Of a DNA stretch of 31,793 bases, positions 140 to 31,793 are shown piece by piece. Location: assembly GCA_051117555.1 (NCBI GenBank), contig JBNPEG010000107.1, forward strand, positions 1 through 31,793. Direction: 5' to 3'. The translations under genes and the position numbers were made by a program. Source of the DNA: Elainellaceae cyanobacterium. Lineage in GTDB: Bacteria > Cyanobacteriota > Cyanobacteriia > CAZCXK01. Positions within the stretch are counted from its first letter, which is position 1; each line of letters opens with the position of its first letter. Under the pieces are notes generated by a model. It made no database searches, was not told the DNA's origin, and worked only from the letters and a program-made list of their open reading frames with translations.

Positions 140-1690
140 TCAACTATTTTGTAAGGTATCGTCGTGCGCATAGGATTCAACGGCCTGGCGAGCAGTATCT
201 AGCAGGGTGTCTTGGTCATCGTCACTGAGCGATTCACCCGACTGAATGCGATCGCATAGGTCTGCGCACTGGTCGGTCACGGCATGCCGAATCGCAAATG
301 CAGCCTCTTCAACGTCGTCTAAAGGAACGGCATCAAATATGCCTTCACCCACAGCCAGCAGGACTGCAATCTGTTCTGCTACGGGGATGGGATCAGACTG
401 GGGCTGTTTCAGAATCTCGCGCACGCGCCGTCCGCGCCGCAGGGTTTGTCGGGTATCTTCGTCGAGCTGTGTGCCAAAGCGAGCAAAGACTTCGACTTCT
501 TGGAACTGAGAATAGGATAGGCGCAACTCGCCTGCGACGGCTTTGTAGGCAGGAAGCTGGGTTTTGCCGCCGACTCGGGAGACTGACTTGCCGATATCAA
601 CAGGCGGCAAAATGCCTTGCTGGAACAGGTCGGGGGATAGGTAAATCTGACCATCTGTGATTGAAATGAGATTGGTCGGGATGTAGGCTGAAATATTTTG
701 GGCTTGGGTTTCGACAATGGGCAGAGTAGTGAGTGAACCGCCCCCGAGTTCGTCGCGCAGATGAGTCGATCGCTCAAGCATTCGAGAATGGATGTAGAAA
801 ATATCGCCTGGATAGGCCTCTCGACCCGGTGGGCGACGCAGTAGTAAGGACAGTTCCCGATAGGCCCAGGCATGACGGGTGAGGTCATCAAAGATAATCA
901 GCACATCGCGACCCTGCTCCATGAAGTACTCACCCATGGTCGTGGCGGCGTAGGGAGTCACATACTGCAATCCCGGTGGATCGTCTCCCGTGGAAACAAT
1001 GACGATGCTGTAGTCCATTGCGTTGCGATCGCGCAGGGTCGAAATCACCTTGGCGACGGCTGACGTGCGTTTGCCGATCGCGCAGTAGATGCAAATGACA
1101 TCTTTATCTGCCTGATTGAGGATGGTATCCACCGCAATAGTTGTTTTCCCGGTTTGGCGATCGCCCACGATTAGTTCGCGTTGTCCCCGTCCAATGGGAA
1201 TCAGCGCATCAATCGCTTTAATCCCCGTCTGAAGCGGTACTTTCACCGGAGCCCGATCGACAAAGGGGGGCGCGTCTCGTTCGATAGGACGATAATCAAC
1301 GCCGCGAATCTCCCCCTGCTGATCGAGCGGACGACCTGTCGCGTCTAGCACTCGTCCGAGTAGCCCATCTCCGACGGGAGCATTCATGACTTGTTGAGTT
1401 CGCAGAACTCGCTGCCCGACTTTAATATGCTCGCTACTATCCAACAAAATGACGCCGATTTCGTCAGGATCAAGGTTAAACGCGATGCCGTTAACTCCCC
1501 CTGGGAAGCGCAAGATTTCATCGGCTTTAACGCTAGGCAATCCAATAACGCTGGCGATCGCCCCCCCCACTGAGCTGACCATCCCGATTTCGTGGGGTTG
1601 AATTTGAGGCTGATAGGAATCCAATGCTCGGTCGAGCGGGGTAAACGTTTGATCGAGCAAGTTTTTAAGGGATGGAACCTGTGAAGTCAT
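140..1690 (-). CDS. atpA: F1 alpha subunit (N-ATPase type)
   Basis: GDRQTGKT Walker [25 protein letters not shown] motifs. Confidence 0.97.
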
Positions 1691-1788
1691 AGTTGAAGCT
1701 AGGGTGAATTAATACTTGCATTAACGGGTGAATCAATATGTGCATCAACGGGTGTTGGACTATGCAGGAACACGTACTGAGTGATGAG

Positions 1789-2589
1789 TTAAGACGACGA
1801 GGATGTCATTCCCGCCGTTGCTTTTCGCTTTTCTTGTTCAAGCTCGGCTGAGACTTCATCTTCAAGGGCTTGCAAGTAGTCGTTAAAGCTCCAGGCAATT
1901 TCGCGATCGCTCACCTGCATTTCAATGCCACAAATCAGATCCGGTGAGGTGCTAAATTTTACGGCTTGCCCATTGGCGACGTTTGCATCTTGCAGAAGCG
2001 CAATCAGGGACTGGCGGGTATCATCAGATAGCTCAAAGCTACTGCGAATCGTGATGTCTTGATGGTCACTCTGAGCGACCTCTACCAAACGCCGCCATTC
2101 AGGATCATCCAACTCTTTGAGCCGCTGCATAAACACGGTGATGGTCTGCTGCTCAAGGCTCGCATCAGCGAGATCTCGAAAGGCTTGGCGTGCGATCGCA
2201 TAGGTTTCGCGAATCACTCGCCGCTGCAACTGGTCTAAAAACTCTTGCTGCTCTTGCTCAATGGCTTCTTTCCAGCGAGCCTGGCGTTGCTCAATATCGC
2301 GCCGAGCATCATGCATCATCTCTTGATAGTGTTGGTTTGCCTTTTCCTTTGCCTCTGCAATCAGTGATGACCGTTGCTCCTCAAGTTCGCGCTGCTTCTG
2401 ACGATAGTGGTTGGCTTCCTCCTGTGCTTGTTCGCGCTGTTTCTGAGCATCCTCTAGCTGATTCTCAATCCGGGTTTGACGCTCGCGCATGATCCGCGTG
2501 ATGGGCTTATACAAGACCAGTCGCAGCAGAAAAATTAAAAGTAAAAAGTTAAAAACTTGAACGGCAACTGTAAACCAATCAATTAGCAC
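1789..2589 (-). CDS. atpF: F0 b subunit with C-terminal delta-like extension (N-ATPase type)
   Basis: MLIDWFTVAVQVFNFLLL TM anchor, coiled coil, 266 aa with SPDLICGIEM-type C-terminal domain; no separate delta gene in the operon. Confidence 0.92.
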   Translation of the reverse strand: MLIDWFTVAVQVFNFLLLIFLLRLVLYKPITRIMRERQTRIENQLEDAQKQREQAQEEANHYRQKQRELEEQRSSLIAEAKEKANQHYQEMMHDARRDIEQRQARWKEAIEQEQQEFLDQLQRRVIRETYAIARQAFRDLADASLEQQTITVFMQRLKELDDPEWRRLVEVAQSDHQDITIRSSFELSDDTRQSLIALLQDANVANGQAVKFSTSPDLICGIEMQVSDREIAWSFNDYLQALEDEVSAELEQEKRKATAGMTSSSS

Positions 2590-2592
2590 AAA

Positions 2593-2874
2593 TCATCCTC
2601 CCCCACTGGCATCTAGGAAGTGACCCCAAAATGGATTTGCGAAGATCAAAATCATAGACACCACAAAACAGTAAATCGCGGTCGATTCAACGATCGCCAA
2701 ACCAACAAACAAGGTGCGGGTAATGGTGTTGGCTTTGTCGGGCTGTTGGGCGATCGCCGCCATAGCACGAGCTAGGGCTAATCCTTCCCCGATGGCAGGC
2801 CCGACTGCTCCAATGGCGATCGTCAGCCCTGCTGTGATAATTGAAACGATACCCACCAAACCTAAATTATCCAT
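2593..2874 (-). CDS. atpE: F0 c subunit with Na+-binding signature
   Basis: Two TM helices, AQQP loop, Glu in helix 1 (GPAIGEG) and ESTAIY in helix 2. Confidence 0.95.
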   Translation of the reverse strand: MDNLGLVGIVSIITAGLTIAIGAVGPAIGEGLALARAMAAIAQQPDKANTITRTLFVGLAIVESTAIYCFVVSMILIFANPFWGHFLDASGGG

Positions 2875-2909
2875 TAACGATACTCCTGCAACAGTCCATC
2901 ATGACTTTT

Positions 2910-3617
2910 CTATGCGACATCTGCATCTGCCTCCGGGTCAGATTGCTGTAGTTGTTGGGCGCGAGTTCCTGAGGCAATATAAACCATCGTCAAAATGGCA
3001 AACACATAGGCTTGAATGATCCCAATGAGCACGCCAAACAACCGCATCAATGCGGGAAAAAGGATGGGGGCAATGGTAATCAGAATAGCAACGAGCAAGC
3101 TGGTGCTCATGATGTTGCCAAATAGACGAATCGCCAATGATATCGTGCGTGAAACTTCACTAATAATTTGGAAGGGCAACATAATGGGAGTCGGCTCGAT
3201 AAAGTGTTTTAAATAGCCGATGATTCCCCGCTTCCAAATGCTGTAAATTGGCACTGCAACAAAGACGCACAGCGCTAAGGCGGTGGTTGTAGACAGCGAT
3301 CCGGCTGGCGATTCGTAGACCGGAAAAATCGTCAGCATGTTTGCAAGCGCAATAAACAGAAATAACGTGCCGACAAAGGGAAGATAGGGTTTGGGATCTT
3401 GCCGACTGGCTTCTCGAATTTGCTGATTAATGACTTCAACGATCGCTTCTAGCATGTTTTGCCAGTTTGACATGCGATGGCGAATCGATAAATTGCGAGT
3501 GACCCACCAGGAGCCGACGACCAGAATTGCCATAATCAGCCACGTATAGAGAATCGTGGCGTTTAGCGTCCAGATGCCAGATTGCCAGAAAATGATATTA
3601 TCTGGGCTAATTTCCAC
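2910..3617 (-). CDS. atpB: F0 a subunit
   Basis: SLAIRLFGN with conserved Arg, IQAYVFAILT; GTG start. Confidence 0.95.
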   Translation of the reverse strand: MEISPDNIIFWQSGIWTLNATILYTWLIMAILVVGSWWVTRNLSIRHRMSNWQNMLEAIVEVINQQIREASRQDPKPYLPFVGTLFLFIALANMLTIFPVYESPAGSLSTTTALALCVFVAVPIYSIWKRGIIGYLKHFIEPTPIMLPFQIISEVSRTISLAIRLFGNIMSTSLLVAILITIAPILFPALMRLFGVLIGIIQAYVFAILTMVYIASGTRAQQLQQSDPEADADVA

Positions 3618-3618
3618 G

Positions 3619-3918
3619 CTAGTCCTCCCTCGCTACATTCAATAAAGGACGAGGCCCCCAGCGATCAATTAGGATCATCCGCGCCAATAAAAATCCCAGT
3701 AAGCCCACCAGGGCTCGTTCCCAGTGTCCCGACATAATGATGTAAAATCCCAGGATTGTAATCACAGTGCGCCCCAAAAAGCTGCCAACAAATAGGCGAA
3801 TGGGAAGCTGGGTGCTAGGCAGTTGGCGGACGGTGATCCAGAGGCTACAAAAGTAGAAAAGGCCAAGCAAGAAACCGGCAGGGAGGGCGGCGATCGCAGG
3901 TAATACGTCAGTCATCAT
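3619..3918 (-). CDS. atpR: N-ATPase AtpR (small membrane subunit)
   Basis: Three hydrophobic helices (GLFYF..LW.TVR; GFLLAR), located between atpQ and atpB as in N-ATPase operons. Confidence 0.8.
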   Translation of the reverse strand: MMTDVLPAIAALPAGFLLGLFYFCSLWITVRQLPSTQLPIRLFVGSFLGRTVITILGFYIIMSGHWERALVGLLGFLLARMILIDRWGPRPLLNVARED

Positions 3919-3968
3919 GATAGTTTTTCCACTGTCAGGTCATATAATATGTGTCAACTCAATGGATG

Positions 3969-4316
3969 TTAGTCCTCTCGACTTTCTTTCTGAATCCAAT
4001 ACCAGGCATTGAAACACCCCACCACTACCCCAACGAACAGGAGAATGAGCGTCCATGAGATTGGCGTGACCCAGGTTGTATCAATCCAGATTCCAATTGC
4101 GATGCCAATCAGCATCGGAATCGCAATTGACCAGCCAACAATACCAAATACACCAACTTCAGATAAAGCGCTGCGCTCTGTGCTATCTTTGGCTTTGAGC
4201 TTACGAGTCGTCTTTTCCTTGACGGCATGGTAGAAGTTGTTAATCGGGTTGTGTTCCTGATTTTGATAGTCTCGAACCTCCGTATCTTCACGAGGCTTCC
4301 GATCTCGACGTTTCAC
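3969..4316 (-). CDS. atpQ: N-ATPase AtpQ (AtpZ/AtpI-like membrane protein)
   Basis: FGIVGWSIAIP..GIWID..SWTL..GCFNAWYW pattern; start moved from 4439 to GTG at 4316, which follows GGAGGA and removes the overlap with atpC. Confidence 0.8.
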   Translation of the reverse strand: MKRRDRKPREDTEVRDYQNQEHNPINNFYHAVKEKTTRKLKAKDSTERSALSEVGVFGIVGWSIAIPMLIGIAIGIWIDTTWVTPISWTLILLFVGVVVGCFNAWYWIQKESRED

Positions 4317-4320
4317 GACC

Positions 4321-4704
4321 TTATCCTCCCATTTCAATAAAGCGACGCACAAATCCAGATTCGAGCTTCGCGAGAGCAGAGCGCGTTTGCCGCTGGCGTT
4401 CATCAAGTTTGCGAAATTCTTCACTGACCGTTTGCTCAAGGGTTTCTAGGCTTGCCCCCCGCACGGCTTGCCGCGTCGAGACTAAAACCTCTGACCCACA
4501 TTTCACTAAAATTCCTTCATCAACTGCGACAAAGGTTTCTTCGACATCATCGGCTTCAAAGGACAAAATACCTGGCGCTAATGCTGTGACAAAGTCGATG
4601 TGGTTGGGATAGATTCCGAATGCGCCATTTTCAGCTTCAGCCGTGATGTTGCTCACGTCTTCTTCGAGGAGAACTTCGGTCGGTAGGAGAATTTTGAGTT
4701 TCAT
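4321..4704 (-). CDS. atpC: F1 epsilon subunit
   Basis: GAFGIYPNHIDFVTAL, VAVDEGILVK motifs. Confidence 0.93.
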   Translation of the reverse strand: MKLKILLPTEVLLEEDVSNITAEAENGAFGIYPNHIDFVTALAPGILSFEADDVEETFVAVDEGILVKCGSEVLVSTRQAVRGASLETLEQTVSEEFRKLDERQRQTRSALAKLESGFVRRFIEMGG

Positions 4705-4727
4705 CGACGGCTCCTTTAAGACGTGGG

Positions 4728-6278
<1,551 letters not shown>

Positions 6279-17245: not shown

Positions 17246-17497
17246 GTCGATCTAGAAAACGAGCCGTCGAATGCAGCAAATGAGAGCATCGATCTAGAAA
17301 ACGAGCCCTCGAATATAGAAAATGAGCCCTCGACTATAGAAAACGAAGCCTCGACTATAGAAACTGAAGCCTCGACTATAGCAAATGAGCCCTCGACTAT
17401 AGAAAACGAAGCGCCGACTATAGCAAATGAGCCCTCGAATATAGAAAACGAAGCGCCGACTATAGAAAACGGAGCCTCGACTATAGAAACCGAAGCC
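17246..17497 (+). repeat. 21-bp tandem array, 12 units, open frame encoding acidic heptads (STIENEA/P)
   Basis: Heptads VDLENEP to STIETEA counted from the translation; ORF 17231-17518 possible. Confidence 0.92.
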
Positions 17498-17627
17498 GTG
17501 TTAACGAAGTCGCTTTAAACAGGGGCGATCGCCCCCCATAACCAAACCTTGTAACAAATTTGACTTGCCTGGATGCGCTAAATCGAGTAAATTTTTGAGC
17601 TAAGGCTGTGTGTGTGCAGCTTGTTTG

Positions 17628-17815
17628 TCCCAAAATTTGGTCGAACGCCACTGGAAGGTGAGCCAACACCAACCAGCGGCTGACCCCCTCAACAGATCAC
17701 GCCTGTCTCGGAGGCTGAGTAAGATTTTACTCGTGGCCGTCCCGAACTGCACATGTTTAGGGCGGCTAAATTTTGGGATTCCTTTCCTATCGTTTCATTG
17801 GAGGAATCCCTCATC
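17628..17815 (+). ncRNA. Putative structured cis-regulatory leader, copy A
   Basis: Closing IR TCCCAAAATTT/AAATTTTGGGA; hairpin GCCACTGG-AA-GGTG-N6-CACC-AA-CCAGCGGC then TGACCCC; GCCGTCC/GGGCGGC hairpin; anti-SD stem GGGATTCCT/AGGAATCCC. Confidence 0.65.
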
Positions 17816-18121
17816 ATGTGTTTCACCAATCCAGATCCTCAGCTATTTGAAAACGCTGAGGATCTCAATCTCGTGCCGGTTGCAAATCCCCCTGAACCCG
17901 AGCGGGAGCGCCTACGCCATGATCATCGGCTCACCCGACGGCGTGCGTTGGTGAAGCCGCTCCCTTTGGGAGTATCGGTGATTAATCGATTGCATGTGCT
18001 CCAGTATGCAGAGCAGTCAACCTGGAGTCGGTTGATTAAGATTCCGGAGGGGGGTGTTGTGATTACGCCCGACCAAGGTGCGGTGTTGAGTTATCTGCTG
18101 CGCTATCGGCAGTTGGGGTAA
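17816..18121 (+). CDS. Small protein of unknown function, paralog of 30761-30997, locally frameshifted
   Basis: GGAGG RBS; LxYAExxxWS motif shared with 30761-30997. Confidence 0.75.
   Translation: MCFTNPDPQLFENAEDLNLVPVANPPEPERERLRHDHRLTRRRALVKPLPLGVSVINRLHVLQYAEQSTWSRLIKIPEGGVVITPDQGAVLSYLLRYRQLG
17948..17973. mobile_element. 26-bp SDR-like mini-insertion in a HIP1-like site
   Basis: GCG|TTGGTGAAGCCGCTCCCTTTGGGAGT|ATCGG, with an internal CTCCC/GGGAG hairpin; removal restores GCGATCGG and the paralog alignment. Confidence 0.7.
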
Positions 18122-18124
18122 GAA

Positions 18125-18191
18125 GTGTTTGGGGTGGGCGATGCCCACCCTCGGTTGAGGTGGTGTTTGGGGTGGGCGATGCCCACCCTAC
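18125..18191. repeat. Two direct copies of a REP-like palindrome
   Basis: GTGTTTGGGGTGGGCGATGCCCACCCT at 18125 and 18163; second copy ends in CTAC (GTAG on the minus strand). Confidence 0.85.
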
Positions 18192-18373
18192 GGGGCTTAG
18201 ACAAAAGGCTGAGGGAGAGTTGATTCGTTATATATCTCTTGGAATGCTGCAATTCTAGCGAGATTGCTGTGTGGAAACTTTATACTGATTATGCAGAAGC
18301 ACATTAAAATCGTTCGTAATAAAATTAATCTTTCACGCACATCAACATCGCTTTTTCCTTGAGTAAATAAGCA

Positions 18374-19408
18374 ATGGCACGGGCAGATCTATTAAAAAAA
18401 CTTCTGAAAAGTCATCAAAAACATGATGATTGGGCTTTTCGTGAGGCTGCCGAGGAAATCATTGCCGAGGAAAGGAAAAAGCATCATATTATCCTGGCAA
18501 ATGAGTTGGAGCGGATTTTGAAAAATGGTAATGGTCACTTGAATTATGGACAGATACAAAGTCTCACACAACTAGACTCCGTCCCTAAAGATATTGAAAA
18601 GGGAGTGGCGCTGCTTGAAACCAAATGGACAAACCGTTTTCTAGAGGATCTGATCTTAAGTCAAGAAATTCGGAACGCACTTGAAAGGATGATGCGTGAG
18701 TTTCGAGAATGGGAAGTTTTGGAAGCTAATGGGCTGCTACCTACTCGTCGTGTTCTGTTCTGTGGTCCTTCTGGCTGTGGGAAGACAGCAGCAGCCGAAG
18801 CCATAGCAGCAGAATTAGGATTGCCGCTACTTTATGTTCGCTTTGATGCAGTCGTTTCTTCACTACTGGGTGAAACTGCTGCCAATCTTCGCAGAGTGTT
18901 TGATTATGCTCAACGTGGGCAGTGGGTGATGTTTTTTGATGAGTTTGACGCAATCGGCCGATCGCGTGACGATCCTACAGAGCATAGTGAGATCAAGCGA
19001 GTTGTCAATTCATACTTGCAAATTGTTGATAATTTTAGCGGTCGATCTCTTATCATTGCAGCAACGAATTTTGAGCAAGCACTTGATCCGGCAGCTTGGA
19101 GAAGATTTGATGATGTCATTCGTTTTGAAAAGCCTACAAATGAGCAGATTCGGAGGCTCGTTGGCAAACGATTAGTCCCATTGAGATTTAATAACACTCA
19201 GGTGGCTGAGATAGTAAAGAAGCTATCAGAGTCTACATATGCAGATGCGGAACGAGTGTGTTTAGATATCCGTAAATCATGCGCTATTCAGGGTACTCGA
19301 CAAGTCAAAAAAGAAGATGTTGAAGAAGCCCTTTCACGACACGCTTATCGTCAGGCTATCTTGGAAAGAGCTTGCGGCAATCCTATGCCGAAGATTGATC
19401 AAGATTAA
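18374..19408 (+). CDS. AAA+ ATPase, IetA-like
   Basis: GPSGCGKT Walker A, FFDEFD Walker B, AATN, LDPAAWRRFD; IIAEERKKHH..LANELE N-terminus. Confidence 0.9.
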   Translation: MARADLLKKLLKSHQKHDDWAFREAAEEIIAEERKKHHIILANELERILKNGNGHLNYGQIQSLTQLDSVPKDIEKGVALLETKWTNRFLEDLILSQEIRNALERMMREFREWEVLEANGLLPTRRVLFCGPSGCGKTAAAEAIAAELGLPLLYVRFDAVVSSLLGETAANLRRVFDYAQRGQWVMFFDEFDAIGRSRDDPTEHSEIKRVVNSYLQIVDNFSGRSLIIAATNFEQALDPAAWRRFDDVIRFEKPTNEQIRRLVGKRLVPLRFNNTQVAEIVKKLSESTYADAERVCLDIRKSCAIQGTRQVKKEDVEEALSRHAYRQAILERACGNPMPKIDQD

Positions 19409-19413
19409 TCATT

Positions 19414-21903
19414 ATGCCTCCATCTCAGCCTGAATCTGATCGATATATACACATCACTTTCACTCGTGAACCGAAGAAGCGATTTGATGACCGGAAAACT
19501 CGACCAAATCTTGGTGCGCCAAAAGCTCCTATCCGAGAAGATCGTCATCAACATGCTCAAGAAATTTCACAAGGTATTACGCAGGCAACACAGCAAATAT
19601 CACAAGCCCGAAAAGGCTATGGCATAGATCCTGAACAGCTTCTTGTTTTGGAATTCAATAGCACCAATATCAACCTGCGAGAAACCTTCGAGCGTTTTGG
19701 TGCGTGGGTTGTTAGTGAGTTTAAGGATAAAGTAGCTGATCAAGATCACTATCGTTTGCTTGTTCAATTTCCAACCGAAACTTCGCGTCAGCTTTTATCG
19801 GATGAGAATCGTCTTTACGACATAGGGGCAACTGAGAATACAGTTTTGGCTCCTGTAATGAGACAGAACTTCTTTGCCGCATTAGAATCAGTAAGCTCAG
19901 TATCACGTGAGGAAAGGATTGGAGTTCGTCTACGGGAGGAAGGTTTCCCTGATGCGGAGTCTTTTTATCTTGATGTAGATCTTTGGCATCCCGGAGATCA
20001 AGATTCTGTTCGCAAGGTGTTGGGTGATATTCGCTCAATGTGTGCCAGTTATGATGGACAGCTAACTGAAGAGGTGCGAACTTCTAGTTTGCTACTGGTC
20101 AAAGTTCGCGGTTCGCGGCAGTTAGCAGAGGCTTTGCTGGAGTTAGACTGGGTTGCTCGTGTTGATCTTCCTCCTAAATTATCACGCGCTTATTCCGAGA
20201 TATTTGGAGATGTGAAACCACCTGATCCAATGCCAGTTCCTTCAAACGAAGATCCGATAGTATGTGTCATAGACAGTGGAGTAGTTTCAGGACATCCTTT
20301 TCTAACCAATTGGGTTGTTGAAGAACGAGATTTCGACACAGGAGAAGATACTTCAACTGATCTAAACGGACATGGAACGTCTGTTGCTGGTTTGGTCGTC
20401 TACGGTGACATTGCTAGTTGTTTAGAAAGCAATCAGTGGCAACCCAGAGTTCGGATTTGTAGTGCTAAAGTGCTTTGCCATGATCCTGCGTGGGGACCTG
20501 TTATTCCAGAACACCACCGTGCTGAAGGGTTAATCGAGCAAGCTATCCGAGACTTCGTCAAAGAACGACAATGCCAAGTCTTTAATCTTTCTATTGCCAA
20601 CCCACAAGAAGTTTATCGGGGTGGACGACAGTTCCCGTGGGCAGAAAAACTCGACGAGCTAGCCAGAGAATGGGATGTTGTGATTGTTCAGATTGCTGGT
20701 AATTGCGAACCCCTGATATCAGAGGATGTGACTACGAGAGAGGAATTTCAGAAGGCTGTTCGAGACAGCTTACTGAAAGATGAAAATCTCAGAATTTGTA
20801 ATCCTGGTACAGCTGCTCTTACCATCACAGTTGGTGCCTTGGCTAGATCAGATGCTCTTGGAGATCACGTAAAAACTACAGGTGTTCGCTTGAAAGATGC
20901 GTTTCCAGGTGCGCCAGCTCATGCTCCTGCACCTTTTACCAGAGTGGGGTGGGGGCTTGCTTATGGTGGTAATAACACAGCAGTTAAACCCGATGTTGTT
21001 GCTTATGGAGGAAACTGGGCAATTCAAACTATTGCAGGTGGAAGCCCCAAGTGGAAGCCTTTTATCTTTCTAGGGGAACCAACCATCCAAATAGAAGACA
21101 GTAGTCGGTTTATCACGGCAAGAGATGGCACTTCTTTTGCTTGTCCTCACGTTGCTCATGCTGCTGCGATCGCTGCATCCAGTCTAAAAACAACCCTTGG
21201 ACGAAGACCATCTGCTAATTTGATTCGTGCTTTAGTAGGTAGCGCGACCTATCCACCGCCGTGTCCTCCAGGTTGGTTAGGCAACGAGAAAGACACGCTG
21301 CGTCTCATCGGCTATGGAATGTGTTCTGTCGATGATTTAACAGCATCCAAGAAAAACCGGGTTCGTTTGATTGCCATGGATGAAGTCGAGTTGGATAAGC
21401 TTCATATCTATCGAGTTGCAGTTCCTGAAATCTTTCTTACAACAAAGGGAAAAAGGGGTATTACAGTTGCACTTGCTTACGATCCGCCTATTCGTGCCAG
21501 TCGCAAAGAGTATCTTGCAAATACAATGTGGGTTGAAGCATTACATGGTTTAACCACAGAAGAAGTTGAAATCTATCGAGCAAAGAATACTGCTTCTGAT
21601 GTAGATACTCTTCCGTCTAAATATCAATTAGAGTTGCGTCCTACAAAAACGGATGTTCGATGGTCAACATTACAGGTTAGAAGATTAAAAAAACAGTCTA
21701 AATTGAAAATACCTGCTGGTGAAACAGAGGCAGTAGTTCATTTTGTGGTTGGCTGTCAGCACAGATTTCCTACGGGTTTTGACTACAAACAGAGGTATGG
21801 CTTAGTTGTTCTTTTTTGGCACGAATCAGAACAGATAGAGCTATACCAGGAGTTACGAGTGAGGGATAGAGTGCGTATGAAATCGGCTCGTGTTCGGGCT
21901 TAG
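19414..21903 (+). CDS. S8 subtilisin-like serine protease, IetS-like
   Basis: Catalytic triad motifs VIDSG, NGHGTSVAG, GTSFACP; VKPDVVAYGGN, LAYDPP; 5 bp downstream of the ATPase; no signal peptide. Confidence 0.9.
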   Translation: MPPSQPESDRYIHITFTREPKKRFDDRKTRPNLGAPKAPIREDRHQHAQEISQGITQATQQISQARKGYGIDPEQLLVLEFNSTNINLRETFERFGAWVVSEFKDKVADQDHYRLLVQFPTETSRQLLSDENRLYDIGATENTVLAPVMRQNFFAALESVSSVSREERIGVRLREEGFPDAESFYLDVDLWHPGDQDSVRKVLGDIRSMCASYDGQLTEEVRTSSLLLVKVRGSRQLAEALLELDWVARVDLPPKLSRAYSEIFGDVKPPDPMPVPSNEDPIVCVIDSGVVSGHPFLTNWVVEERDFDTGEDTSTDLNGHGTSVAGLVVYGDIASCLESNQWQPRVRICSAKVLCHDPAWGPVIPEHHRAEGLIEQAIRDFVKERQCQVFNLSIANPQEVYRGGRQFPWAEKLDELAREWDVVIVQIAGNCEPLISEDVTTREEFQKAVRDSLLKDENLRICNPGTAALTITVGALARSDALGDHVKTTGVRLKDAFPGAPAHAPAPFTRVGWGLAYGGNNTAVKPDVVAYGGNWAIQTIAGGSPKWKPFIFLGEPTIQIEDSSRFITARDGTSFACPHVAHAAAIAASSLKTTLGRRPSANLIRALVGSATYPPPCPPGWLGNEKDTLRLIGYGMCSVDDLTASKKNRVRLIAMDEVELDKLHIYRVAVPEIFLTTKGKRGITVALAYDPPIRASRKEYLANTMWVEALHGLTTEEVEIYRAKNTASDVDTLPSKYQLELRPTKTDVRWSTLQVRRLKKQSKLKIPAGETEAVVHFVVGCQHRFPTGFDYKQRYGLVVLFWHESEQIELYQELRVRDRVRMKSARVRA

Positions 21904-30190: not shown

Positions 30191-30454
30191 ATGCCAGTTT
30201 TACCTGAACATTCTACGGGGCCAAAGCCCAAGAAGCTTTTAGACCAGGTTCGCGAGGTGATGCGCTTAAAGCATTATGCTTATCGCACCGAAGAAACTTA
30301 ATCCATTGGATAAAGCGATACATTCTGTTCCATCACAAACGACATCCTAGAGATATGGGATGTGTTGAGATTGAGGCATTCCTAGACGACGATGATTTAT
30401 ACCCATGTACTCAATCGGGGTGGCAGGGGAGTTCGAAGTCCGTTGGATGGGTGA
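30191..30454 (+). pseudogene. intI: Integron integrase, frameshifted and internally deleted
   Basis: KLLDQVREVMRLKHYAYRTEET / IHWIKRYILFHHKRHPRDMG..EIEAFL fused to TTMIYTHVLNRGGRGVRSPLDG*. Confidence 0.92.
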
Positions 30455-30525
30455 AGGCGATCGCCAAAGACCGTTCCTAAAGGATCATCACCCCACAACC
30501 CCATTAAATCTTTCTAATAAGCCAA

Positions 30526-30539
30526 AGTACGGTTGTATT
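30526..30539. promoter_or_regulatory. Possible cyanobacterial LexA box
   Basis: AGTACGGTTGTATT, one mismatch to RGTACNNNDGTWCB, just upstream of TACACT (-10-like) and leader B. Confidence 0.35.
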
Positions 30540-30570
30540 TCTTTCACGAATACACTATTCTTTGCCATTA

Positions 30571-30760
30571 AGCGCTCAAACAGCGCAGCGCTCCCTAGAA
30601 GTGGTGGGACACAACTAGGAAGCTAACCCCTGACCCTGTTCTAGGCAGAATCAGTGGCTTTAGGCATTTTAGCTCCTATCGCCATCCTTCTTTGCCATGT
30701 CAAGTATCAGGGTGGCGTGTTTGTTTGAGCGCTCTTTATCAGAAAAAAGGAGCGTACTTC
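30571..30760 (+). ncRNA. Putative structured cis-regulatory leader, copy B
   Basis: Closing IR AGCGCTCAAACA/TGTTTGAGCGCT; hairpin GCTCCCTAG-AA-GTG-N6-CAC-AA-CTAGGAAGC then TAACCCC; CGCCATCCT/AGGGTGGCG hairpin; anti-SD stem CGCTCTTT/AAGGAGCG. Confidence 0.65.
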
Positions 30761-30997
30761 ATGGTTTATCCTCCCAATCCGCCCGGTGGGGCGGACAGTT
30801 CATCGCGTCCAGATGATGATCGCCATACCCTGCGCATCATTGCAGTAGGGTCGCTTACTGTTGTGAACCATCACATCATGCAGATGTATCAACTCGACTA
30901 TGCCGAACCGGGTGACTGGTCAAAGCCATTGCCCACGGTGAATCCCAATGAGGTGATGCGGATTTTGACCAAACGCATTCGGGGGTTGAATACCTAG
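30761..30997 (+). CDS. Small protein of unknown function (78 aa), paralog of 17816-18121
   Basis: AAGGAG RBS; RHTLRIIAVGS..V...I.....LDYAEPGDWS. Confidence 0.8.
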   Translation: MVYPPNPPGGADSSSRPDDDRHTLRIIAVGSLTVVNHHIMQMYQLDYAEPGDWSKPLPTVNPNEVMRILTKRIRGLNT

Positions 30998-31067
30998 GCT
31001 GGTTGACTGGCAAGACTCTGCACAGCCGATGTTGGATAGGTGAGAGCGTTTAGATTTTCGTGTCAGT

Positions 31068-31085
31068 GCGACCGAGGACGGTCGC
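31068..31085. terminator. GC-rich hairpin downstream of 30761-30997
   Basis: GCGACCG-AGGA-CGGTCGC; no strong U tract, may instead be a dispersed repeat. Confidence 0.3.
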
Positions 31086-31185
31086 GTATTCCTTAATTAC
31101 ACAAAATCTTGAATGCTCTCATGCCTGTCTTTCTGGGGGCTGATCAGTCTCTCCAGGGTGGTCTACTCAACCTGCAAAGTGTTAT

Positions 31186-31437
31186 TTCGAGCCTTCTTTC
31201 CTTTAGTTTGGGACTCATTTCCTTTAGTTCGGGACTCATTTCCTTTAGTTCGGGACTCATTTCCTTTAGTTTGAGCCTTCTTTCCTTTAGTTCGGGACTC
31301 ATTTCCTTTAGTTCGAGCCTTCTTTCCTTTATTTCGAGACTCATTTCCTTTAGTTTGAGACTCATTTCCTTTAGTTTGAGACTCATTTCCTTTAGTTTGG
31401 GACTCATTTCCTTTAGTTCGGGACTCATTTCCTTTAG
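31186..31437 (-). repeat. 21-bp tandem array, 12 units, encoding LKEMSPE/LKERRLE heptads
   Basis: Units counted from the translation; ORF 31144-31497 possible; opposite strand also open (SFSSGLI heptads). Confidence 0.92.
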
Positions 31438-31535
31438 TTCGCTGCGCTCATTCACTCGAACGATACGCCGTACATTTCCTGCAAACGCTAATTCCATTTG
31501 TTTTTTGGAGCGATCGCTTAGTTGAAAAGGGCAGT

Positions 31536-31640
31536 ATGACCAATTCTTCAAAGTAAGGCTACAAATGAACAGGCTAGAACCCTTGCAAGGCTGGTGGCCG
31601 TCAATCCAAAATCGCAAATCCAAAATCGAGAATTGGTATA
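31536..31640. mobile_element. Miniature inverted-repeat element with ACCAATTCT/AGAATTGGT ends and internal AATCCAA/AATCGCA heptamers
   Basis: Inverted ends at 31539-31547 and 31629-31637; related ends at 11756-11781, 16215 and 17134. Confidence 0.65.
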
Positions 31641-31793
31641 TGACCCTGCCAAACAGGCCAACAAATGAAATGGTAATTGCTCAACTAGGTTGACCAAAGC
31701 AAGCCTCCAGCAGAAAATGGTAAGCTTTTGCCATGAAGGAACTGCCCCCTCTAGATAGACTAAGCCCCGCCGAAAAGGATGCCCTCATTGAAG

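What the first reader, a model, noticed from the sequence alone, without database searches (positions are those of the whole stretch)
30571..30997. Small unknown gene under a conserved, covarying RNA switch - two diverged copies in this window (copy B)
Seen: the leaders 17628-17815 and 30571-30760 share little sequence but have the same architecture, in the same order. (1) An 11-12 bp perfect long-range closing stem. (2) A hairpin with a C/A mismatch at pair 4, a symmetric AA/AA internal loop and a GTG-N6-CAC cap, followed immediately by TRACCCC. (3) An ATTTTA word. (4) A second GC-rich hairpin. (5) An anti-SD stem whose 5' strand overlaps the 3' strand of the closing stem (GGGATTCCT/AGGAATCCC in A, CGCTCTTT/AAGGAGCG in B). 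The downstream proteins align without gaps over 34 residues with 13 identities (RxxLRxxxxGSxxxVxxxIxxxxxLxYAExxxWS) once copy A is repaired. Inference: a translational ON/OFF switch (protein-, antisense- or ligand-controlled) on a small, possibly toxic or defence-related protein family that I cannot name. It is loosely analogous to phage P1 c4 / P4 CI-controlled leaders or type I toxin leaders.
Basis: partly seen in the sequence, partly recalled or inferred. Interest (0 to 1): 0.88.

Follow-up and report, generated by a model that had tools for sequence, protein, structure and literature searches.

The report
Antisense-controlled leader of a multicopy small gene
The flagged region is one copy of a widespread, many-copies-per-genome cyanobacterial module: a small gene of unknown function behind a conserved folded leader that hides its ribosome-binding site and that seems to encode, on the opposite strand, a two-hairpin antisense RNA whose loops differ from copy to copy.

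Summary
Both leaders (30571-30760 and 17628-17815) have the five described features. A covariance model built only from B-type leaders finds the A leader full-length (40.6 bits, E~1e-12). Covariation is strong: 39 of 46 pairs change on both sides, with 0 of 500 shuffles as high. There is no Rfam, Pfam, NCBIfam or PADLOC match.

1. This is not a pair. The genome holds about 18 B-type and 7 A-type gene copies. The RNA model hits 30 of 151 sampled cyanobacterial genomes (24 of 81 genera), and a family ORF follows 34 of 39 diverse hits.
2. Hairpins P2 and P3 carry A·C but almost no G·U mismatches and are more stable on the minus strand (56/56 and 55/56). P1 and P5 behave as plus-strand helices.
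3. The "ATTTTA word" reads TAnnnT on the minus strand, 7-10 nt upstream of P3', in 53 of 56 leaders. That fits an antisense -10 box.
4. The P2 and P3 apical loops are hypervariable (0.53 and 0.40 differences per site, against 0.01 in stems).

Best reading: a cis-antisense-controlled leader that sequesters the ribosome-binding site, like a type I toxin-antitoxin locus. No transcript data were available. The protein's function and toxicity are unknown. Copy A's ORF is decayed.

The parts
30533..30561 (+). Putative sense promoter: TTGTAT (30533-30538), a 17-nt spacer, TATTCT (30556-30561). The predicted start lies about 30568-30571, at the first base of P1.
   Evidence: The blocks ACGGTTGT and TAT(T/G)CT are conserved at fixed spacing among B-type paralogs while the spacer sequence varies. 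The consensus scan did not pass it (7 of 12 matches). Inferred, not mapped.
30571..30582 (+). P1 5' strand (AGCGCTCAAACA), the closing stem.
   Evidence: 12 perfect bp with 30722-30733. 10 of 12 pairs change on both sides. G.U 56 against A.C 7, so it behaves as a plus-strand helix.
30590..30623 (.). P2 hairpin. The apical loop (30604-30609) is hypervariable. C.A on the plus strand equals G.U on the minus strand.
   Evidence: 8 of 9 lower-stem pairs change on both sides. G.U 2 against A.C 80. More stable on the minus strand in 56 of 56. 50 distinct hairpins among 56. Loop divergence 0.53 per site against 0.01 in stems.
30627..30657 (.). P3 hairpin. The apical loop (30639-30645) is hypervariable.
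   Evidence: 7 of 7 lower-stem pairs change on both sides. G.U 4 against A.C 63. More stable on the minus strand in 55 of 56. Loop divergence 0.40 per site.
30590..30660 (-). Predicted cis-antisense RNA (core P3' and P2'). The start is predicted near 30658-30660; the 3' end is unknown and may run past 30570.
   Evidence: The minus strand of 30556-30662 folds into two uninterrupted hairpins: -44.3 kcal/mol, z -3.7, 0 of 200 shuffles as stable. The plus-strand P2-P3 piece (30590-30662) gives -24.5 kcal/mol, z -1.7. Strand asymmetry. No transcript data.
30666..30671 (-).
   Evidence: TAnnnT lies 7-10 nt upstream of P3' in 53 of 56 leaders. The other 3 have CATAAT or TGGTAAAAC. T1, A2 and T6 are kept while positions 3-5 vary.
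30658..30681 (+). P4 hairpin. Its 3' half holds the first anti-SD (GCTCCT, 30672-30677).
   Evidence: G.U 34 against A.C 11. GCTCCT pairs with AGGAGC, and the flanking bases covary with the SD flanks across B-type leaders: duplexes of 6-11 bp in 25 of 26 distinct B-type P4/SD combinations.
30682..30715 (+). P5 GC-rich hairpin (GCCATCC...GGGTGGC) with the conserved loop word TTTGYNATG.
   Evidence: G.U 37 against A.C 4. More stable on the plus strand in 41 of 53.
30722..30737 (+). P1 3' strand (30722-30733) overlapping the second anti-SD, CGCTCTTT (30730-30737).
   Evidence: Read directly. The same 4-nt overlap of closing stem and anti-SD occurs in copy A with a different sequence.
30747..30754 (+). 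Shine-Dalgarno region AAGGAGCG.
   Evidence: It lies 6 nt before the ATG. It is complementary to both anti-SD elements.
30761..30997 (+). Copy B ORF, 78 aa, intact.
   Evidence: The AlphaFold2 model has mean pLDDT 82.8.
17623..17818 (+). Copy A leader with the same architecture. It has only the local anti-SD (17775-17783 with 17802-17810). The minus-strand TAAAAT is at 17724-17729.
   Evidence: R1 match at 40.6 bits. Folds.
17816..18121 (+). Copy A ORF, 101 aa, open but decayed.
   Evidence: A 2-nt deletion and a 26-nt insertion relative to intact A-type paralogs. The conserved N-terminal strand is read out of frame.

Best explanation
The region is one unit of a dispersed gene family. Each unit is self-contained: a sense promoter, a leader of about 190 nt and a small ORF of 78-100 aa.

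In the sense mRNA the 5' end pairs with a segment just upstream of the ribosome-binding site (P1). The 3' strand of P1 overlaps an anti-SD, so P1 and the anti-SD:SD hairpin compete. B-type leaders carry a second anti-SD in the 3' half of P4.

On the opposite strand, a promoter whose -10 box lies in the P4 loop most likely drives a small antisense RNA. That RNA consists of two stem-loops (P3', P2') and is fully complementary to the 5' part of the leader.

Proposed mechanism (inferred):
1. Loop-loop contacts at P2 and P3 start the pairing.
2. The duplex spreads towards the mRNA 5' end and captures the 5' strand of P1.
3. The freed 3' strand and its anti-SD close over the SD, so translation is off. 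The duplex may also be cleaved.

The hypervariable P2 and P3 loops would keep each antisense RNA specific for its own copy among the many paralogs in one cell.

Shown here: the structure and its covariation, complementarity to the SD with covarying flanks, the strand asymmetry, the position-fixed -10-like box, the loop hypervariability, and the copy number and spread.
Inferred: both transcripts, the direction of regulation, and any toxicity of the protein.
For: Structure:
- R1 finds the A leader at E~1e-12.
- 35 of 46 pairs and 39 of 46 pairs change on both sides, with 0 of 500 shuffles as high.

SD sequestration:
- The local anti-SD overlaps P1 in both A and B.
- The P4 anti-SD pairs with the SD over 6-11 bp with covarying flanks in 25 of 26 distinct B-type combinations.

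Antisense RNA:
- Non-Watson-Crick cells: P2 has G.U 2 and A.C 80, P3 has 4 and 63. P1 has 56 and 7, P4 34 and 11, P5 37 and 4 (same pattern).
- P2 and P3 are more stable on the minus strand in 56/56 and 55/56 distinct sequences. P5 is more stable on the plus strand in 41/53.
- The minus strand folds into two clean hairpins, z -3.7.
- TAnnnT lies 7-10 nt upstream of P3' in 53 of 56 leaders, in twelve hexamer variants. In the closer set, 34 of 34 distinct contexts had a -10-like hexamer at 8-9 nt.

Specificity loops:
- Divergence is 0.53 (P2 loop) and 0.40 (P3 loop) against 0.01 in stems, over 71 close pairs. One pair has 0 of 199 differences elsewhere but 4 of 7 in the P2 loop.
- 50 of 56 P2 hairpins are distinct.

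Family:
- 18 B-type and 7 A-type gene copies in the genome.
- The RNA is found in 30 of 151 genomes and the protein in 51 of 401.
- A family ORF follows the leader in 34 of 39 hits.

Precedent: Sib RNAs tell cognate from non-cognate ibs mRNAs through two recognition domains (PMC2943612, abstract read).
Against: - There are no transcript data. No RNA run was available for this DNA, so neither start site nor the antisense RNA is shown.
- The consensus promoter and terminator scan found no site on either strand in 30350-31150.
- I found no convincing -35 box or intrinsic terminator for the antisense RNA.
- The sequences are related paralogs and orthologs, so the 56/56 counts overstate the number of independent events. 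Some A.C positions, such as P2 pair 4, are ancient and fixed, and could be a structural feature of the sense RNA.
- The P4 loop word could be conserved for a reason in the sense RNA.
- The protein is not a short hydrophobic peptide like most type I toxins. It is predicted to be a soluble alpha/beta domain, and its toxicity is unknown.
- Three paralogs in this genome share the same P2 loop, CGGACA. Any uniqueness would have to rest on P2 and P3 together.
Confidence: 0.55

Rival explanations
1. A purely cis-acting sense-strand regulator, either a riboswitch or a protein-binding leader. The five-helix domain closed by P1 binds a ligand or a protein, possibly the encoded protein itself. That stabilises or opens P1 and so sets the anti-SD:SD equilibrium. 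The A.C positions are conserved non-canonical pairs, and no antisense RNA exists.
For: - P1 overlaps the anti-SD as in many translational riboswitches.
- There are conserved single-stranded words: J1/2, TRACCCC, the P4 loop and the P5 loop TTTGYNATG.
- The whole plus-strand leader folds well, z -3.9.
- P2 pair 4 is C.A in most leaders, as a fixed feature could be.
Against: - P2 and P3 show A.C as the intermediate state at several covarying positions and almost no G.U (2 and 4 cells against 80 and 63). P1, P4 and P5 show the reverse.
- The P4 loop word varies exactly as a -10 box does.
- The two apical loops are hypervariable rather than conserved.
- A riboswitch on dozens of paralogs of one small protein, with no metabolic link, has no precedent known to me (recalled).
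- No Rfam family matches.
Confidence: 0.22
2. A mobile or recombination element acting at the DNA level. The hairpins are single-strand DNA structures recognised by a transposase or recombinase, and the small ORF is cargo or an accessory gene.
For: - There are many dispersed copies, most within 0.2-3 kb of contig ends.
- Similarity stops sharply about 20 nt upstream of the -35 block and at the stop codon.
- Neighbours are unrelated.
- Leader and ORF types appear mosaic between copies.
Against: - No terminal inverted repeats or target duplications were seen at the unit ends.
- No recombinase or transposase recurs next to the copies.
- Copies are diverged (65-94% protein identity), and one orthologous position is kept between two genomes of the genus.
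- SD:anti-SD covariation and plus-strand G.U in P1, P4 and P5 point to function at the RNA level.
- Contig breaks are explained by the adjacent tandem arrays and short repeats.
Confidence: 0.06
3. A trans-sensing switch. The variable P2 and P3 loops pair with other RNAs, cellular or foreign, and that pairing rather than a cis-antisense RNA flips the leader.
For: - Loop hypervariability is far above that of the rest of the leader.
- No consistent partner for the P2 loop exists inside the unit.
- Many copies lie beside conflict genes: IetAS, nSTAND, NACHT, CHAT, AIPR, type I restriction, McrBC and GmrSD.
Against: - Loops of 5-7 nt are too short to name targets.
- The minus-strand signals already give a partner.
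- Conflict genes are abundant in these genomes in any case, and housekeeping neighbours are as common.
Confidence: 0.07

Closest known systems
[quoted passage not shown]
   Same: Several near-identical copies sit in one genome. The sRNA is cis-encoded, and two separate recognition regions let each sRNA act on its cognate mRNA only (PMC2943612, abstract read; PMC3919570, passages read). Here two hypervariable loops sit in an otherwise near-identical leader.
   Different: Ibs toxins are 18-19 aa hydrophobic peptides, and Sib overlaps the coding region (PMC3919570 passages; peptide size recalled). Here the ORF is 78-100 aa and predicted soluble. The inferred antisense RNA overlaps only the 5' leader. 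Copy numbers reach 16 or more per genome. Toxicity is untested.
Ldr/Rdl and SymE/SymR (antisense RNA over the 5' UTR of a toxin mRNA)
   Same: The antitoxin RNA overlaps the 5' untranslated region (Rdl: PMC3919570 passage). SymE is a soluble, non-membrane type I toxin (recalled, not checked here).
   Different: There is no sequence, Pfam or fold match to these proteins. The leader here is a five-helix domain with two anti-SD elements.
CopA/CopT and RNAI/RNAII plasmid antisense control
   Same: Stem-loops with internal loops or mismatches, and pairing that begins as a loop-loop kissing complex and then spreads (PMC3919570 passage). Loop sequence as the specificity determinant is recalled.
   Different: Those systems control plasmid replication. 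Here the copies are chromosomal, dispersed, and control a small ORF.
Translational riboswitches (P1 competing with an anti-SD)
   Same: A closing helix whose 3' strand overlaps the SD-sequestering element.
   Different: No Rfam match. The apical loops are hypervariable, the helices split by strand, and the gene context is a single multicopy small-protein family.
IS110 bridge RNA (two variable loops in a structured RNA beside a gene)
   Same: A structured non-coding region of about 180 nt, 5' of an ORF, with two variable loops (recalled).
   Different: No DEDD recombinase lies beside the copies. The variable parts are apical loops, not internal loops, and there are no element ends.

Membership tests
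Any Rfam 15 family | Score at or above the family's gathering threshold. | tested here: not met
   0 matches in the whole window at gathering thresholds. The best E-value-mode hits around both leaders were E 0.62 or worse and far below gathering scores.
Type I toxin-antitoxin system | An antisense RNA that pairs with the toxin mRNA. | tested here: inconclusive
   Computational support only: strand asymmetry of P2 and P3, a clean minus-strand fold and a position-fixed -10-like box. No transcript data were available.
Type I toxin-antitoxin system | A structured 5' UTR that sequesters the ribosome-binding site. | tested here: met
   Two anti-SD elements. The P4 anti-SD has flanks that covary with the SD flanks. 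P1 overlaps the local anti-SD in both A and B.
Type I toxin-antitoxin system | A small hydrophobic, membrane-active toxin (typical members). | tested here: not met
   78-100 aa. AlphaFold2 predicts strand-helix-strand elements, an alpha/beta domain, with pLDDT above 90 for 49 residues. Soluble exceptions exist (recalled).
Type I toxin-antitoxin system | The protein is toxic when expressed without the RNA. | not testable with these tools
   This needs an expression test.
Riboswitch | A conserved ligand-binding core and a link to genes of one metabolic or transport pathway. | tested here: inconclusive
   Conserved junction words exist. The only linked gene is the small ORF (34 of 39), and the neighbours are unrelated.
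Pfam / NCBIfam / PADLOC protein families | A profile match for the small protein. | tested here: not met
   0 families for P0002 and P0001 and for 18 small-protein relatives. The one exception is the TIR domain in the fused protein P0192.
Known protein folds (PDB) | A significant structural match. | tested here: inconclusive
   Foldseek's best E-value was 0.19. The VIA-align wide search had a best Z of 3.8 and none at 5 or above. The weak rows have generic alpha/beta (ACT, PII, CutA-like) folds.
Transposable element / IS110-type bridge RNA element | An adjacent transposase or recombinase and defined element ends. | tested here: not met
   No recurring recombinase among 59 and 51 neighbouring ORFs. 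One copy lies beside a tyrosine recombinase (L001). No inverted or direct terminal repeats.

The most novel reading that the evidence does not exclude
The dozens of units per genome form a diversified repertoire of RNA-triggered switches. The two hypervariable loops are kept different by selection because each recognises a different RNA in trans, for instance transcripts of phages or other mobile elements. Pairing would flip the leader and release translation of a small effector, giving an RNA-sensing arm of cyanobacterial immunity. A milder version is that a dedicated process actively diversifies the two loops.
Probability: 0.07. Interest if true: 0.95.

Novelty: new variant of a known kind. 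Interest (0 to 1): 0.72.

Why it matters

- The family reaches 16 or more scored copies per genome and occurs in 24 of 81 sampled genera.
- The RNA has no Rfam family and the protein no Pfam family.
- It would be a natural example of many near-identical sense/antisense pairs coexisting in one cell. Two short loops would act as the address labels, which makes the question of how cis-antisense families avoid cross-talk directly testable by loop swaps.
- It gives a handle on an unnamed small-protein family (731 cluster representatives) that often lies in variable, defence-rich regions.
- For annotation: the C.A "mismatch" and the "ATTTTA word" are better read as a G.U pair and a -10 box on the other strand.

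Tried and rejected
- Rfam: nothing at gathering or E-value thresholds.
- Pfam, NCBIfam and PADLOC for the small protein: nothing.
- ESM Atlas: only unnamed cyanobacterial clusters.
- Fold searches: no significant match.
- Search for longer fused forms: 2 proteins of about 180 aa with no domains. One TIR-containing fusion turned up elsewhere.
- Sequencing runs: no RNA holder listed, and only small-share DNA holders. I therefore laid no reads.
- Consensus promoter/terminator scan: no site in the B region on either strand. In the A region there was one minus-strand terminator-like site inside the tandem array.
- A cis partner for the P2 loop inside the unit: best duplexes of 4-8 nt at scattered positions, so none is consistent.
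- P2 loop pairing with the P3 loop: checked by eye on a few copies, not complementary.
- Terminal repeats or target duplications at unit ends: none seen.
- Empty-site search in a genome of the same genus: one locus holds the copy at the orthologous position, and another is rearranged at the unit. No clean empty site was found.
- A conserved operon partner: none.
- A -35 box or intrinsic terminator for the antisense RNA: nothing consistent by eye.
- A sense -10 at fixed distance from P1 across the diverse set: only 20 of 42. It is consistent within the B-type of this family.
- Literature: three full-text searches found no description of this RNA or protein. A fourth failed on a term error. That is far from exhaustive.
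Full report
**What is at the coordinates.** The window is contig C168 of a 6.06-Mb, 256-contig cyanobacterial assembly. Close homologs come from Elainellaceae, Nodosilinea and Leptolyngbya records. Copy B is an intact 78-aa ORF at 30761-30997, preceded by a non-coding stretch of about 190 nt. Copy A is a 101-aa open frame at 17816-18121, behind a stretch of similar length.

Each leader folds much better than its shuffles, with z -3.9 and 0 or 1 of 200 shuffles as stable.

**Is the shared architecture real?** I aligned ten B-type leaders from this genome, wrote a five-helix structure (P1 closing stem, then P2, P3, P4, P5) and built covariance model R1 with 208 positions and 46 pairs. No A-type sequence was used. 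R1 nevertheless aligns the window's A leader full-length (17623-17818) at 40.6 bits, E 8e-13 to 2e-12. It also finds four further A-type leaders.

- On 57 model-aligned leaders from this genome and close relatives, 87.6% of cells pair against 32-45% with slid partners. 35 of 46 pairs change on both sides, and 0 of 500 shuffles reach the observed values. One of the 57 rows is a spurious reverse-strand match.
- On a broader set of 56 leaders from many genomes, 85.3% of cells pair against 36-50% with slid partners. 39 of 46 pairs change on both sides, again with 0 of 500 shuffles as high.
- These alignments were fitted to the model and the rows are related, so the figures lean towards the structure.
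- P1 changes wholesale between subtypes. It is AGCGCTCAAACA/TGTTTGAGCGCT in B, TCCCAAAATTT/AAATTTTGGGA in A, and GCCCAAAA/TTTTGGGC in another lineage. This can be read straight from the sequences.

Rfam has nothing here. There were 0 matches at gathering thresholds in the whole window, and only chance-level rows in E-value mode.

**It is a family, not a pair.** A tblastn search of the genome finds 18 B-type and 7 A-type loci at E<=1e-5, plus one A-type remnant. R1 finds 17 B-type leaders and one A-type leader in the genome.

- DNA similarity between paralogs begins about 20 nt upstream of a conserved ACGGTTGT block and ends at the stop codon. The leader is at least as conserved as the ORF.
- The neighbours have nothing in common. 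In this genome they include an integrase, SAM synthetase, a helicase, nSTAND-WD40, NACHT, CHAT, AIPR, Cas6, ClpB, riboflavin genes and a glycogen phosphorylase. In other genomes they include HtpG, type I restriction subunits, McrBC, GmrSD, PIN, kinases and aminotransferases.
- The protein has no Pfam, NCBIfam or PADLOC family.
- A profile search of 1.84 billion cluster representatives gives 731 hits at E<=1e-3 and 237 at E<=1e-10. Nearly all are 60-180 aa, with the domain at the C-terminus.
- In a sample of the phylum the protein occurs in 51 of 401 genomes and 24 of 155 genera, usually in several copies.
- The RNA model hits 30 of 151 sampled genomes of the class and 24 of 81 genera.
- In 34 of 39 diverse RNA hits that I fetched, a family ORF follows on the same strand, even where the proteins are very diverged.
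- Other subfamilies do not match R1. The Nodosilinea type has a shorter leader with one covarying hairpin.

**The protein.** AlphaFold2 with the family alignment gives mean pLDDT 82.8. It shows a disordered N-terminus and a compact strand-helix-strand alpha/beta domain over residues 21-75. Foldseek against the PDB has a best E of 0.19. The alignment-independent search has a best Z of 3.8. No function follows from the fold.

One 575-aa protein carries the domain at its C-terminus after a TIR domain and a WD40 fragment. A search for longer forms gave only two proteins of about 180 aa without domains.

**Copy A is decayed.** Compared with intact A-type paralogs, the window's copy A has a 2-nt deletion and, 24 nt further on, a 26-nt insertion. 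The frame is restored, but the conserved LLGSxxGV segment is read out of frame.

**Sense-strand logic.** In both A and B the 3' strand of P1 overlaps the 5' strand of a local anti-SD hairpin by 4 nt, although the sequences differ. P1 and the anti-SD:SD hairpin therefore compete.

The 3' half of P4 reads (A/G)CTCCT and pairs with AGGAG(T/C). The bases flanking the CTCC/GGAG core change together: GCTCCT/AGGAGC, ACACTCCT/AGGAGTGT, CACTCCAA/TTGGAGTG and TTACACTCCAA/TTGGAGTGTAA. This gives duplexes of 6-11 bp in 25 of 26 distinct B-type combinations; the 26th has no such duplex. The two A-type combinations lack this element.

Upstream, the B-type copies share TTGTAT, a 17-nt spacer and TAT(T/G)CT, ending 9 nt before P1. 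The spacer sequence varies. That fits a sense promoter whose transcript starts at P1. It reaches only 7 of 12 consensus matches, and the scan tool did not call it. In the diverse set a TAnnnT at 5-12 nt from P1 is present in only 20 of 42 leaders.

**The helices split by strand.** The "C/A mismatch at pair 4" is one instance of a general pattern.

Non-Watson-Crick cells over the 56 diverse leaders (same pattern):

| Helix | G.U | A.C |
|---|---|---|
| P2 | 2 | 80 |
| P3 | 4 | 63 |
| P1 | 56 | 7 |
| P4 | 34 | 11 |
| P5 | 37 | 4 |

An A.C on one strand is a G.U on the other. I folded each hairpin alone, which does not depend on the alignment columns.

- P2 is more stable on the minus strand in 56 of 56 distinct sequences, by 7.0 kcal/mol on average. 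P3 is more stable there in 55 of 56, by 4.5 kcal/mol.
- P5 is more stable on the plus strand in 41 of 53. P4 shows no difference.
- In the closer set, P1 is more stable on the plus strand in 14 of 17 non-tied distinct stems (20 examined; 3 favour the minus strand). That set gave the same pattern for P2, P3 and P5.
- The minus strand of 30556-30662 folds into two uninterrupted hairpins: -44.3 kcal/mol, z -3.7, 0 of 200 shuffles as stable. The plus-strand P2-P3 piece (30590-30662) gives -24.5 kcal/mol and z -1.7.
- The sequences are related, so these counts are not independent events. The pattern does hold in A-type, B-type and distant lineages.

**The ATTTTA word.** Read on the minus strand it is TAAAAT. 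Across the 56 diverse leaders a TAnnnT hexamer lies 7-10 nt upstream of the first base of P3' in 53. The hexamers are TAAAAT (28), TAAACT (10), TACAAT (3), TATAAT (3) and eight rarer forms. The other three leaders have CATAAT or TGGTAAAAC. In the closer set, all 34 distinct contexts had such a hexamer at 8-9 nt.

Positions 1, 2 and 6 are kept while 3-5 vary. That is how a -10 box behaves, and not how a structural RNA word would be expected to behave. It places an antisense start at the foot of P3'. I found no consistent -35 box or terminator, and no RNA data exist for this DNA.

**Hypervariable loops.** I took the 71 leader pairs that differ at no more than 2 of the 92 stem columns and measured per-site divergence by region.

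| Region | Differences per site |
|---|---|
| P2 apical loop | 0.53 |
| P3 apical loop | 0.40 |
| Stems | 0.01 |
| P4 loop | 0.02 |
| J1/2 | 0.04 |
| P5 loop | 0.14 |

- One pair of paralogs (C152 and C203) has 0 differences in 199 other columns but 4 in the 7 loop positions of P2. Three pairs from a related genome have 1 of 197 elsewhere and 3-5 of 7 in the P2 loop.
- 50 of 56 P2 hairpins and 46 of 56 P3 hairpins are distinct, almost entirely through their loops.
- The same holds for near-identical A-type paralogs.
- I found no consistent partner for the P2 loop inside the unit.
- Loops are not strictly unique. Three paralogs of this genome share CGGACA in P2, but they differ in P3.

**Most likely mechanism.** Taken together, each unit most likely encodes two RNAs. 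One is a sense mRNA whose leader can hide its SD. The other is a cis-antisense RNA of two stem-loops over the 5' part of that leader.

My proposal for the mechanism is inference. Loop-loop contacts at P2 and P3 start the pairing. The duplex spreads to the mRNA 5' end and takes the 5' strand of P1. The released 3' strand and its anti-SD then close over the SD, and the duplex may also be a nuclease target. The variable loops would act as address labels, keeping each antisense RNA on its own mRNA among dozens of near-identical paralogs.

The closest described precedent is Sib/Ibs. There, five cis-encoded sRNAs repress only their cognate mRNAs through two recognition domains, and swapping the domains changes the target (PMC2943612, abstract read). 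Antisense RNAs over 5' UTRs (Rdl) and kissing-complex initiation (CopA/CopT, RNAI/RNAII) are summarised in PMC3919570 (passages read).

I put this reading at 0.55. The main rival, at 0.22, is a purely sense-strand switch that binds a ligand or protein and has conserved A.C pairs. A DNA-level mobile element (0.06) and a trans-sensing switch (0.07) are less likely. The reasons are in the rivals section.

**Membership and novelty.** The module works like a type I toxin-antitoxin locus in architecture, but I do not file it as one. The antisense RNA is only inferred, toxicity is untested, and the protein is not a short hydrophobic peptide. It matches no Rfam, Pfam, NCBIfam or PADLOC family. Three full-text searches found no description of it, which is weak evidence that it is unpublished. 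I rate it a new variant of a known kind.

**Verdict.**
- The finding is larger than reported: it is a widespread multicopy family.
- The decisive missing evidence is transcript mapping.

Noticed in passing
window 18374-21903 (+): A two-gene IetAS-type anti-phage system lies directly downstream of copy A. The AAA ATPase at 18374-19408 matches PADLOC IetA at 1.7e-88. The S8 peptidase at 19414-21903 matches IetS at 1.8e-101. The NCBIfam IteA/IteS matches fall below their cut-offs. Other A-type copies are not followed by such a pair.
   Followed up: partly
window 17253-17497 and 31197-31441: Two tandem arrays, each of period 21 and 11.7 copies. One is upstream of copy A and one downstream of copy B. 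By eye, about 15 of 21 positions of one unit match the reverse complement of the other. The B-side array recurs downstream of other family copies (C71, C86, C111) and at contig ends (C202, C235). Both arrays are open in one frame as heptad repeats. Their meaning is unknown.
   Followed up: partly
window 31539-31640: A short repeat of about 100 nt, present in more than 60 places in the genome at 75-98% identity. It looks like a miniature mobile element.
   Followed up: no
window 31041-31096: A palindromic repeat of about 55 nt just downstream of copy B, with about 20 further copies in the genome.
   Followed up: no
L005 981-1280, L007 1547-1851 and about ten related loci (e.g. L032, L034, L036): In about a fifth of B-type leaders, roughly 100 nt are inserted between P1 and the SD. 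The insert begins with purine-rich AAGGC(A/G)G repeats and carries its own SD.
   Followed up: no
L061-L099 (Nodosilinea, Leptolyngbya, Halomicronema and other records): A third subfamily of the protein (about 96 aa, starting MMTE...) has a different, shorter leader. It has one 9-bp hairpin with clear compensatory changes, then an ACCCC-like word and GGAG. By eye, a few of these hairpins also show C.A or A.C mismatches.
   Followed up: partly
protein P0192 (Allocoleopsis franciscana record): A 575-aa protein with a TIR domain (residues 115-236) and a WD40 fragment carries the small-protein domain at its C-terminus. It may be a true fusion or an insertion of a unit into a larger gene.
   Followed up: partly
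window 140-6266 (-): An N-type ATPase operon on the minus strand: alpha, b/delta, c and a subunits, AtpR (PF12966), gene-1 protein, epsilon and beta.
   Followed up: no
window 18123-18198: Two copies of a GC-rich palindrome (GGGGTGGGCGATGCCCACCC) sit right after the stop of copy A. They gave only chance-level microRNA rows in Rfam's E-value mode.
   Followed up: no
window 31673-31793: The last 121 nt of the contig are identical to the start of contig C105 in reverse orientation. An ORF begins at 31733, which may be the edge of an insertion sequence.
   Followed up: no
loci L045-L052 against L008-L010 (alignment): Leader type and ORF type are recombined between paralogs: the same leader type occurs with two different ORF types. 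This suggests gene conversion among copies, and it makes the persistence of different loops more notable.
   Followed up: no
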